Source: the human T2T-CHM13v2.0 reference genome, Homo sapiens. Taken from it: a stretch of DNA of 64,000 bases. Location of the stretch: NCBI RefSeq assembly GCF_009914755.1, contig NC_060927.1. The stretch is one strand, 5' to 3'. Shown one piece after another: positions 2,490-7,811 of this stretch. A program made the position numbers and the translations under genes. The first letter of the stretch is position 1. Every line of letters starts with the position of its first letter. Below the pieces are notes generated by a model, which saw only the letters and a list, made by a program, of their open reading frames with translations, ran no database searches and was not told the origin of the DNA.

Positions 2490-4086
<1,597 letters not shown>

Positions 4087-4096
4087 GACTGAGAAT

Positions 4097-4411
<315 letters not shown>

Positions 4412-4929
4412 TTACTATATAGAGATGTTCATTGGGGAGAAAGTCAATAGAGTCTTGAATATTCTCGTGATGTGCAGAATAATTGTGTAGAGATTATTTT
4501 AAATCATAAATACATCTTATATCTTAATATCTTAAATATGTTTTGTTTTCCATATATACTTAAGATATTTCTATGAAAATGTCTTATCCTAATATTTGCC
4601 AGCAAGAGTCTTGTGTAACCTTTTGAAAGTTGAGTAATAACTGTAATGCTGCTTTGCTTATTTTTCATAAAACAGTGATTTTCTTTAATATATCTGAAAA
4701 TGCATTTTTCATTTATTTTTTCTTATTATTATATGTATATATCAAGTGTGGCATTTGAGAGTCTGTTGATAAAATTTACAAAAGTAGAATTACAATTTTA
4801 TGTTAATGATGAAAGAATGACTTATAATATTCACCTGATTGTATCTCTTATTTTGTGTGCTTTTGTTAAACATATGTCGATTTATTTTGCCAACATGATT
4901 ATATAGACAGAGAACTCCTTTTCTTTCAG

Positions 4930-5089
4930 GTTGGTTCATGTGATCCTGGTTAATGGAACATAAGTGAGATTTTATGGGTGACAGGGAGAGAGATCAGGCT
5001 TGACTTGAGAGCACGTGGGAAAAGAAGGGGGCTATCTCTTCGCAAAGATTTAAGTATCTTATAAGAACTGTTTGCCAGTGCAATTATGA
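4930..5089 (+). other. FAM162A: Candidate alternative FAM162A exon ending in ATG-A, in frame with exon 2
   Basis: Acceptor ctccttttctttcag| at 4929, donor |gtaagt at 5090; ATG at 5086-5088 with A at -3. Confidence 0.6.
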
Positions 5090-5202
5090 GTAAGTGTATT
5101 TGTGCCTAATTTTTATTTTTTAAAAGCTCAGGTGATTATAATTTCATCTGTGAAATGTTGGAAGTATAGTCTGATTAAAATAGTATATATCTAAAAAAAA
5201 AA

Positions 5203-5660
5203 AATAGCCATTCTGGCTGGTTGTGAGATGGTATTGCATTGTGGTTTTGATGTGCATTTCTCTAGTGATCAGTGATGTTACTTTTTCTTCTGTATGCCTG
5301 TTGGCTGCACGTATGTCTTCTTTTGAAAAGTGTCTGCTCACGTCCTTTGCCCACCTTTTAATGGGCTGGTGTTTTTTTTCTTGATAATTTGTTTAAGTTC
5401 CTTATAGAGCTGGATATAGACCTTTGTCAGATGCATAGTTTGCAAAAATTTTGTCTCATTCTATAAGTTGTCTGTTTGTTGATAGTTTCTTTTGCTGTGC
5501 AGAACCTGTTTAGTTTCTGCACAGTAAAAGTTAAATTTATTAGATCCCATTTGTCCATTTTTGCTTTTGTTGCAGTTGCTTTTGGCATCTTCATCATGAA
5601 ATCTTTGCCCATTCCTATGTCCAGAATGGTATTGCCTAGGTTGTCTTCCAGGGTTTTTAT
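5203..5660 (-). mobile_element. L1PA-type fragment, continuation of 2490-3375
   Basis: Resumes the L1 sequence aatagccattctggctggttgtgagatgg; minus-strand ORF2-like peptide [15 protein letters not shown]. Confidence 0.85.
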
Positions 5661-6313: not shown

Positions 6314-6436
6314 GAAGCTGTTTTAGGTTATGTGAAAGAGATGTTTCCTCATCTCTAAGGCTTACCAGAAGCTCTGATTTGAAGAGAATAAATGGATTTT
6401 GCACAAAACCACAGGAAAGTCCCGGAGCTCCATCCC
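6314..6436 (+). CDS. FAM162A: FAM162A (HGTD-P, mitochondrial protein) exon 2
   Basis: ag|...|gtaagt; encodes SCFRLCERDVSSSLRLTRSSDLKRINGFCTKPQESPGAPS. Confidence 0.95.
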
Positions 6437-6620
6437 GTAAGTTTTTATTTTTTCTATTTATGGAGTTGGTAGCTCCCAAAGAGTAGGAAAACTTGGAATC
6501 AAAAGAACCCAAAAGAGAAGAGGTTCCTATATCATACCCTCCCATGTAGAGAGAACACATTGTGTTCACATTGTGCATGTGCACATGACCAATATGAGCA
6601 CAACATGGGAGGCCTGAGGG

Positions 6621-6833
6621 AGGCCCATGTTCCTACATCATACCTCCCATGTTTTACTCATATGCAGGCCCATCTTCCTACATCACACTTCTCATGTTTT
6701 ACTCATACGTAGGCCCATGTTCCTACATCATACCTCCCATGTTTTACTCATATGCAGGCCCATCTTCCTACGTCACACTTCTCATGTTTTACTCATACAT
6801 AGGCCCATGTTCCTACAGCAGACCTCCCATGTT
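6621..6833. repeat. 45-bp minisatellite, ~4.7 units with alternating variants (90-bp higher order)
   Basis: aggcccatgttcctacatcatacctcccatgttttactcatatgc alternating with aggcccatcttcctacatcacacttctcatgttttactcatacgt. Confidence 0.95.
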
Positions 6834-7811
6834 GTATTAATATTGGTCATGGGCACATGCACAGTGGTTTCTTCATTTTCAGCATTTGTCATTTTCATCT
6901 TCTTGCCTGTAGGGTTGGACTGGAGCTTTCTGTAGGAGAATGGATGCACCAAAGTAAATAGTAGTCCAGAAATTATGTTTTAAAGAACTCTAAAGATGAA
7001 CCAAATTAAGATATTATGCGTTAGGTAAAATATAAGCAGGGCCTTCTCCTTATCACCCTCACTGGCTCTCCCTTTGCACTGATTTTTATCTCTATTCCCG
7101 ACTTATTAATGAAATGACTCAGATGGCATATATTCCCTTCAGAGTCAGCAAATCTTTAAGTAGTATTCATGCTCTTTCCTTCCCCAACTGGGTCTTTTCC
7201 CGTCTTCTTTTAGTTACAATACTGCTGTTGTCTTAGTCATCCAAGTTTGAGGTTCTTCGTGACTCCTTCCTCTTTGTCTTAACCAGTCTCCACATTCTTT
7301 CAGTCATCCTCAGACTGACCTCATCTCTCTTTCCACTGCGACAACTCTGGTTCAGAGAATATCCGCTCACCATGGTATTACAGGCTCCCATTTGGACTTT
7401 TTGCCCACTCTACCGTGTCCCCCTTTTCTGTCTCCATCCATTGTACAGATAATAAGCCTTCCTAAAACATTAGTTTCTTCCTTGTTTCAAAATGTACAGT
7501 AGTTCCCAATCAAGTCTAAACCCCTTAGCCTGACATTCAAGATCTGGTAAAATCTGATTGTACCTTACAAACTTTTTCTTAGTCTGCTGAAGTCAGACAA
7601 GCTCCTCACCGTTTCCTTGGGATTTTATAATCTTATTTGGAAAATGAAGCATCCTAAGAAATTCCATTCAAATAAAGTTCTAATTAACTTGAGGTTTCTC
7701 AGTGTTTCTGTTTAGTGACTAGTTAAAAAGCACTAATACCATTTTTCTGTTGTTAAATTTGAGAGTTATAATCTCAAACACATAAAATTTCTTGTCTGGT
7801 TTTTCTCATAG

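What the first reader, a model, noticed from the sequence alone, without database searches (positions are those of the whole stretch)
4915..5095. Transduced segment supplies a ready-made exon giving FAM162A an alternative start (possible exon shuffling)
Seen: strong acceptor at 4929 and donor gtaagt at 5090 define 160 nt ending ...caattATGA. Spliced to exon 2 (GAAGCTGT...) it reads ATG AGA AGC TGT TTT = MRSCFRL, in frame, giving a 144-aa protein. The exon also has three short uORFs and a CACGTG (E-box/HRE core) at 5012-5017. If spliced after the canonical exon 1 (phase 1, recalled), it stops the normal frame at G-W-F-M-TGA. Inference: a primate-specific switch that shortens the N-terminal mitochondrial targeting region or damps translation. 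A similar short isoform may already be annotated, but I do not know of its retrotransduction origin being described.
Basis: partly seen in the sequence, partly recalled or inferred. Interest (0 to 1): 0.7.

Follow-up and report, generated by a model that had tools for sequence, protein, structure and literature searches.

The report
Retrotransposon-copied intron became a minor exon
A jumping gene copied 0.8 kb of chromosome 12 DNA into the first intron of the mitochondrial gene FAM162A, where one letter of difference completes a splice site and likely creates a minor exon that would lower the amount of the protein without changing its mature form.

Summary
In detail: 4930-5089 has a good acceptor and a GTAAGT donor, and ATG 5086 is in frame with exon 2 (144 aa, 16,515 Da). 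The retrotransduction origin is confirmed. The exon lies in a 1.8-kb Alu/L1 chimeric insertion with a 15-bp target-site duplication and a poly(A) tail, carrying 0.8 kb copied from chr12:15.646 Mb (inferred EPS8 intron 1), where no L1 remains. 'Ready-made exon' is not supported: the source has the acceptor and the ATG, but its donor position reads ATAAGT, and the E-box is absent. This is best read as exonization of copied intron, not exon shuffling; which copy changed is unpolarised. A 144-aa, 16.5-kDa FAM162A entry is already in UniProt (F8W7Q4), and this is the only consensus donor of 13 sites that could give it. Published N-terminomics puts the mature start at residue 56, so both isoforms would give the same mature protein. 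The exon is no better conserved than its flanks. Splicing and translation were not testable. I found the origin in no paper searched. Real and tidy, modest interest.

The parts
3061..3378 (-). older antisense L1, left of the insertion (host element; extends further left, to about 2486)
   Evidence: 3061-3378 and 5218-5650 align to adjacent stretches of other L1 copies (L011 1561-1258 then 1237-832; window 51603-51304 then 51297-51093); left end from inverted repeat I13
3364..3378 (+). left target-site duplication, 15 bp, preceded by a T-run (TT/AATA endonuclease-type site)
3376..3652 (+). near full-length sense Alu without an A-tail, forming the 5' end of the insertion (Alu/L1 chimera)
   Evidence: D2, D3; junction at 3652/3653; Alu identity by similarity to the neighbouring Alu and recalled consensus
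3653..4070 (+). 5'-truncated L1 3' end, sense, 7-8% from its 5 nearest fetched relatives; AATAAA at 4066
4097..4392 (+). later Alu inserted at the L1 tail/transduction junction, with its own 15-bp duplication (4082-4096, 4393-4407)
4394..5189 (+). 3'-transduced unique sequence, copy of chr12:15,646,958-15,646,132 (minus strand); 50 mismatches in 792 columns, K2P 0.066
4930..5089 (+). candidate 160-nt cassette exon (acceptor shared with the source)
4953..5003 (+). two short uORFs (4953-4967, 4974-5003); last stop lies 82 nt before ATG 5086
5086..5088 (+). alternative ATG (A at -3), in frame with exon 2; also present at the source
5090..5095 (+). donor GTAAGT; the source reads ATAAGT
5174..5204 (+). 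ATTAAA poly(A) signal (5174-5179) and A-run (5193-5204) that end the transduced RNA
5203..5217 (+). right target-site duplication
5218..5650 (-). older antisense L1, right of the insertion
6314..6436 (+). FAM162A exon 2, the acceptor partner
   Evidence: RefSeq table in the finding

Best explanation
A single Alu/L1 chimeric retrotransposition copied 0.8 kb of chromosome 12 DNA into FAM162A intron 1, and the copy, which has a GT donor where the source has AT, likely works as a low-inclusion cassette exon that would lower FAM162A output without changing the mature protein. Steps. (1) Shown: insertion anatomy, source locus and direction chr12 to chr3. (2) Inferred: the parent L1 sat in sense orientation in EPS8 intron 1, read through its own poly(A) signal to ATTAAA 0.8 kb downstream, and is absent from the present locus; reverse transcription then switched to (or was ligated with) an Alu RNA; age roughly 25-30 million years. 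(3) Inferred: an A-to-G change completed the donor in the copy. (4) Inferred from a database entry: the exon is spliced at some level. (5) Predicted: after exon 1 the normal frame stops at 15 codons; some ribosomes reinitiate at 5086; the 144-aa precursor keeps 43 of about 55 cleaved residues and the cleavage site, so it would mature to the normal protein. Net effect: near-neutral, slight loss of output.
For: 15-bp duplication, poly(A) signal and tail. One other match in the genome, on chr12, in 2 of 2 searches. Source lacks duplication and tail, and the L1 part finds only one 80-bp hit in about 40 kb around it. Host L1 is split at one point. PTB-domain exons 100 kb downstream and a GC-rich island 20 kb upstream on the same strand. 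Donor ATAAGT at the source and no GTRAG-type donor in the 420 nt after the source acceptor. UniProt F8W7Q4 is 144 aa, 16.5 kDa (PMC12015642 supplement rows) against 16,515 Da computed; 1 of 13 ATG-N|GT sites in the intron has a consensus donor. Mature N-terminus at 56, predicted cut after 54 (PMC13672106 supplement rows and passages). No conservation excess. Monkey records use other intron-1 exons onto exon 2, so minor exons here are recurrent.
Against: No RNA or ribosome data seen. RefSeq lists 1 transcript, without the exon. The F8W7Q4 sequence itself was not seen, only its length and mass; 7 other ATG-N|GT sites would give the same mass, though with poor donors. 0 of 50 retrieved FAM162A proteins start with the short N-terminus (90% clustering can hide it). 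The A/G donor difference is unpolarised: 15 G(window)/A(source) and 10 reverse differences. The gene name EPS8 rests on domain position plus recalled map position. The first 12 residues are conserved across 30 canonical-type N-termini, and N-terminal GFP partly disturbs import (PMC13158519 section 3.1), so import of the short form could differ.
Confidence: 0.6

Rival explanations
1. True exon shuffling: the segment was already a spliced exon of the source gene when it was copied, and the source donor later decayed (G to A).
For: Acceptor, ATG and the rest of the donor hexamer are present at the source; direction of the A/G change cannot be told from two copies.
Against: No GT at the human source; no conservation excess over flanks (p=0.47); the copied unit is 0.8 kb of unspliced, intron-like 26-29% GC sequence.
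Confidence: 0.1
2. Pseudo-exon or splicing noise: the exon is almost never included, and the 144-aa entry comes from a rare cDNA with no translated product.
For: Absent from RefSeq; 4 comparable pairs in the intron; ATG lies behind three short ORFs; the one peptide row seen for F8W7Q4 is shared with the canonical entry.
Against: It is the only one of 13 sites with a consensus donor that fits the 144-aa, 16.5-kDa entry. This rival differs from the best explanation only in degree.
Confidence: 0.17
3. Selected regulatory switch: inclusion is regulated (for example by hypoxia) and tunes FAM162A dose or mitochondrial import in catarrhine primates.
For: Frame, Kozak -3 A and 82-nt spacing suit reinitiation; N-terminus matters partly for import; FAM162A rises in hypoxia (PMC12648380 passage).
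Against: No conservation excess; mature protein unchanged; E-box absent at source and unremarkable; no CpG-island promoter near the exon (CpG o/e 0.31-0.34).
Confidence: 0.07
4. The main output of the insertion is a terminal exon: splicing to 4930 and cleavage at the copied ATTAAA site (or the L1 AATAAA), truncating some FAM162A transcripts.
For: ATTAAA 85 nt behind the donor was used once, as the end of the insertion shows; GU-rich sequence follows in both loci.
Against: No 3'-end data; the GTAAGT donor upstream would suppress cleavage (general knowledge); the genomic A-run can mimic such ends by internal priming.
Confidence: 0.06

Closest known systems
L1-mediated 3' transduction (catalogues: bioRxiv 10.1101/2021.07.12.451456, 183 top-confidence L1 3' events in CHM13, passages seen; PMC9311842, passages seen)
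   Same: L1 3' end + unique flank + poly(A) within one target-site duplication; single source on another chromosome.
   Different: No parent L1 at the source; an Alu caps the 5' end; an exon-like unit lies in the transduced part. Whether the CHM13 table lists this event could not be checked (supplement not seen).
Alu/LINE-1 chimeric insertions (PMC13174262, 452 events; passages and supplement search seen)
   Same: Near full-length sense Alu fused 5' of a truncated L1, one duplication of 11-17 bp, endonuclease-type site.
   Different: Carries a 3' transduction and a second nested Alu; my estimated hg38 coordinates, the duplication motif and both gene names gave 0 hits in 6 supplement files.
Exonization of intronic retroelement insertions by a splice-site point change (Alu exons; search listing only, mechanism recalled)
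   Same: Lineage-specific insertion, one change completing a splice site, minor isoform with premature stop.
   Different: The exonized sequence is unique host DNA carried by the element, not the element's own sequence.
UniProt TrEMBL F8W7Q4 (FAM162A, 144 aa)
   Same: Length 144 and mass 16.5 kDa match the computed product.
   Different: Sequence and exon structure of the entry were not seen; the accession was recalled and then confirmed in papers.

Membership tests
L1 3' transduction | Target-site duplication enclosing element plus flank | tested here: met
   15 bp at 3364 and 5203; host L1 split at that point
L1 3' transduction | Order L1 3' end, unique sequence, poly(A) signal, poly(A) tail | tested here: met
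L1 3' transduction | Unique part maps to a distant source without duplication or tail | tested here: met
   chr12:15,646,132-958
L1 3' transduction | Parent L1 directly upstream at the source | tested here: not met
   No L1 at the junction; one unrelated 80-bp hit in about 40 kb. Loss of an unfixed parent is inferred; a second template switch is not excluded
Alu/L1 chimera | Sense, near full-length Alu abutting a truncated L1 inside one duplication, without its own tail or duplication | tested here: met
Alu/L1 chimera | Both parts absent together at the orthologous empty site in outgroups | not testable with these tools
   no primate genomes held
Exon shuffling by transduction | Segment has both splice sites at the source | tested here: not met
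   source donor position is ATAAGT; ancestral state unknown
Exon shuffling by transduction | Segment is an annotated or expressed exon of the source gene | not testable with these tools
   no chr12 annotation or RNA data available
Exonization | Inclusion in spliced RNA | tested here: inconclusive
   indirect only: 144-aa, 16.5-kDa database entry; absent from RefSeq
Exonization | Splice site gained after insertion | tested here: inconclusive
   copy GT vs source AT, no outgroup

The most novel reading that the evidence does not exclude
The transduced piece was a cryptic terminal exon of EPS8 intron 1 (acceptor plus ATTAAA 245 nt downstream, no donor), which one A-to-G change turned into an internal, start-bearing cassette exon of FAM162A that catarrhine primates now regulate to tune the dose or import of a cristae protein: a traceable birth of a regulatory exon from transduced unique DNA.
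Probability: 0.07. Interest if true: 0.65.

Novelty: new member of a known kind. Interest (0 to 1): 0.3.

Why it matters
Fixed human exons that can be traced to transduced unique DNA are few, and here source and copy both survive, so the birth of a splice site can be dated and polarised with a primate alignment. It also warns that 'transduction = exon shuffling' needs the source splice sites checked. For FAM162A biology the effect is probably small: proteomics tables that list F8W7Q4 do not thereby show the short isoform (the one peptide row seen is shared), and both precursors would mature to the same protein.

Tried and rejected
Ready-made exon: rejected on the source donor. E-box/HRE as a feature: rejected as unremarkable and not shared with the source. 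Own promoter at the exon: no CpG enrichment, not excluded. Segmental duplication or chr3-to-chr12 direction: rejected, because duplication and tail are only on chr3. Sibling transductions or a surviving parent L1: none among 2 matches; the 40 scored L1 relatives of 7,967 candidates were 89-92% identical apart from self, and the 5 fetched showed no transduced tail. Protein search with exon 2: 50 FAM162A proteins, 0 with the short start, uninformative because of 90% clustering. Literature: searches (listings read) and the supplement search showed no description of this exon's origin; the library lacks most subscription papers. Three papers looked up by recalled id were not held, and bioRxiv supplements (CHM13 transduction table) were not seen. 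Earlier scan findings were not available. A crude hydrophobic-moment check (recalled scale) gave 0.69 for the first 11 residues of the short form vs 0.27 for the canonical: no sign of lost amphipathicity, weak evidence. No structure or complex prediction was run: the mature protein is unchanged.

Full report
Observation. The sequence features are as described. An acceptor ends at 4929 and GTAAGT starts at 5090, bounding 160 nt; ATG 5086 spliced to exons 2-5 gives an open 144-codon frame. Exon 1, fetched from the genome, has 34 coding bases, so the phase is 1, and inclusion ends the normal frame after 15 codons; two further uORFs (4 and 9 codons) follow, the last stop 82 nt before ATG 5086. By simple rules the sites sit at the lower end of the window's 13 annotated acceptors and 11 donors, and 4 comparable acceptor/GTAAGT pairs exist in the 18,462-nt intron, of which only this one carries an open in-frame ATG. 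No trained splice model was available.

Anatomy of the insertion. A 15-bp duplication at 3364 and 5203 encloses about 1.8 kb and splits an older antisense L1 whose two halves align to adjacent stretches of other L1 copies. Inside, 5' to 3': a near full-length sense Alu without tail (3376-3652); an L1 3' end (3653-4070), 7-8% from the 5 nearest fetched relatives; an A-rich tail into which a later Alu inserted with its own 15-bp duplication (4082/4393); 0.8 kb of unique DNA (4394-5189); ATTAAA at 5174 and an A-run. Alu/L1 chimeras of this form are a described class (452 events, PMC13174262, passages read); a search of its 6 supplement files with estimated hg38 coordinates, the duplication motif and gene names gave no hit (coordinates estimated from recall, so weak).

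Source. The unique part has one other match in the genome, chr12:15,646,132-958, minus strand: 50 mismatches in 792 columns, K2P 0.066. The chr12 copy has no duplication, no tail, and GU-rich sequence after the ATTAAA, so it is the donor. No L1 lies at its 5' junction, and the L1 part finds a single 80-bp hit in about 40 kb around it: the parent is inferred to have been lost or never fixed; a further template switch is not excluded. PTB-domain exons lie 100 kb downstream on the same strand and a GC-rich island 20 kb upstream; with the recalled map position this is EPS8 intron 1 (inferred; no chr12 annotation seen). The divergence is near the recalled human-macaque value, suggesting 25-30 million years (inference; no primate genome was available).

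Was the exon ready-made? Not in the human source. The acceptor and ATG are shared, but the donor reads ATAAGT and the E-box CATATG, and no GTRAG-type donor follows the source acceptor within 420 nt. The exon is not better conserved than its flanks (12 of 160 vs 38 of 632, p=0.47). Which copy changed cannot be told from two sequences (15 vs 10 A/G differences either way). Exonization of copied intron is the simplest reading; shuffling would need an ancestral GT and exon use in EPS8.

Is it used? Indirectly, likely. UniProt F8W7Q4 is a FAM162A entry of 144 aa and 16.5 kDa (PMC12015642 supplement rows). The computed product is 16,515 Da; a plain 10-residue truncation would be 16,356. Of 13 ATG-N|GT sites in intron 1 that would give 144 aa, 8 give that mass and only 5086 has a consensus donor. 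Against: the entry's sequence was not seen; RefSeq has no such exon; 0 of 50 retrieved proteins start this way; the one peptide row seen for F8W7Q4 is shared with the canonical protein (PMC10362333 supplement, cut when stored). Monkey records splice other intron-1 pieces onto exon 2, which map to human -9352..-9296, -8985..-8932 and -12048..-11989, so minor exons in this intron are recurrent.

Consequence. Human mitochondrial N-terminomics lists FAM162A with a mature start at residue 56, Tyr removed by ICP55, and a predicted MPP cut after 54 (PMC13672106 supplement rows, 12 of 21 files searched, and passages; numbering checked). The short precursor swaps 12 residues for 2 and keeps the rest of the cleaved leader, so its mature form would be identical. 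Those 12 residues are conserved in 30 canonical-type N-termini and N-terminal GFP partly impairs localisation (PMC13158519 section 3.1 read), so import efficiency could differ. The likely net effect of inclusion is a small loss of output through the early stop and uORFs, partly rescued by reinitiation (general knowledge of uORF reinitiation and start-proximal escape from NMD, recalled).

Novelty and verdict. Transduction, Alu/L1 chimeras and exonization are all known kinds, and the isoform appears already annotated. The link between them at this locus was not found in the searches; the CHM13 transduction table and several older papers could not be seen. Verdict: real retrotransduction, probable minor exon, exon shuffling not supported, function probably slight. 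New member of a known kind; interest 0.3.

Noticed in passing
window 6560-6866: Element with inverted arms (6569-6635 / 6800-6866, 81% complementary) around 4.7 copies of a 45-bp unit in FAM162A intron 2; looks like a small DNA-transposon relic with an internal minisatellite.
   Followed up: no
G000 C12:15,646,392-15,646,130 (L002, minus strand): At the source, acceptor + ATTAAA 245 nt downstream + GU-rich tract without a donor resembles a cryptic terminal exon / intronic poly(A) site of the inferred EPS8 intron 1.
   Followed up: partly
window -9352..-9296 and -8985..-8932 (L005): Human counterparts of alternative intron-1 exons annotated in mangabey and macaque FAM162A records, with AG and GT sites intact.
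   Followed up: partly
L005, FAM162A exon 1, codon 10: This assembly reads Val where Q96A26 has Ala; likely a common variant in the cleaved leader.
   Followed up: no
window 2860-3070: Antisense Alu nested in the host L1, apparently with its own short duplication (D6, D14): three Alus and two L1s stacked within 3 kb.
   Followed up: no
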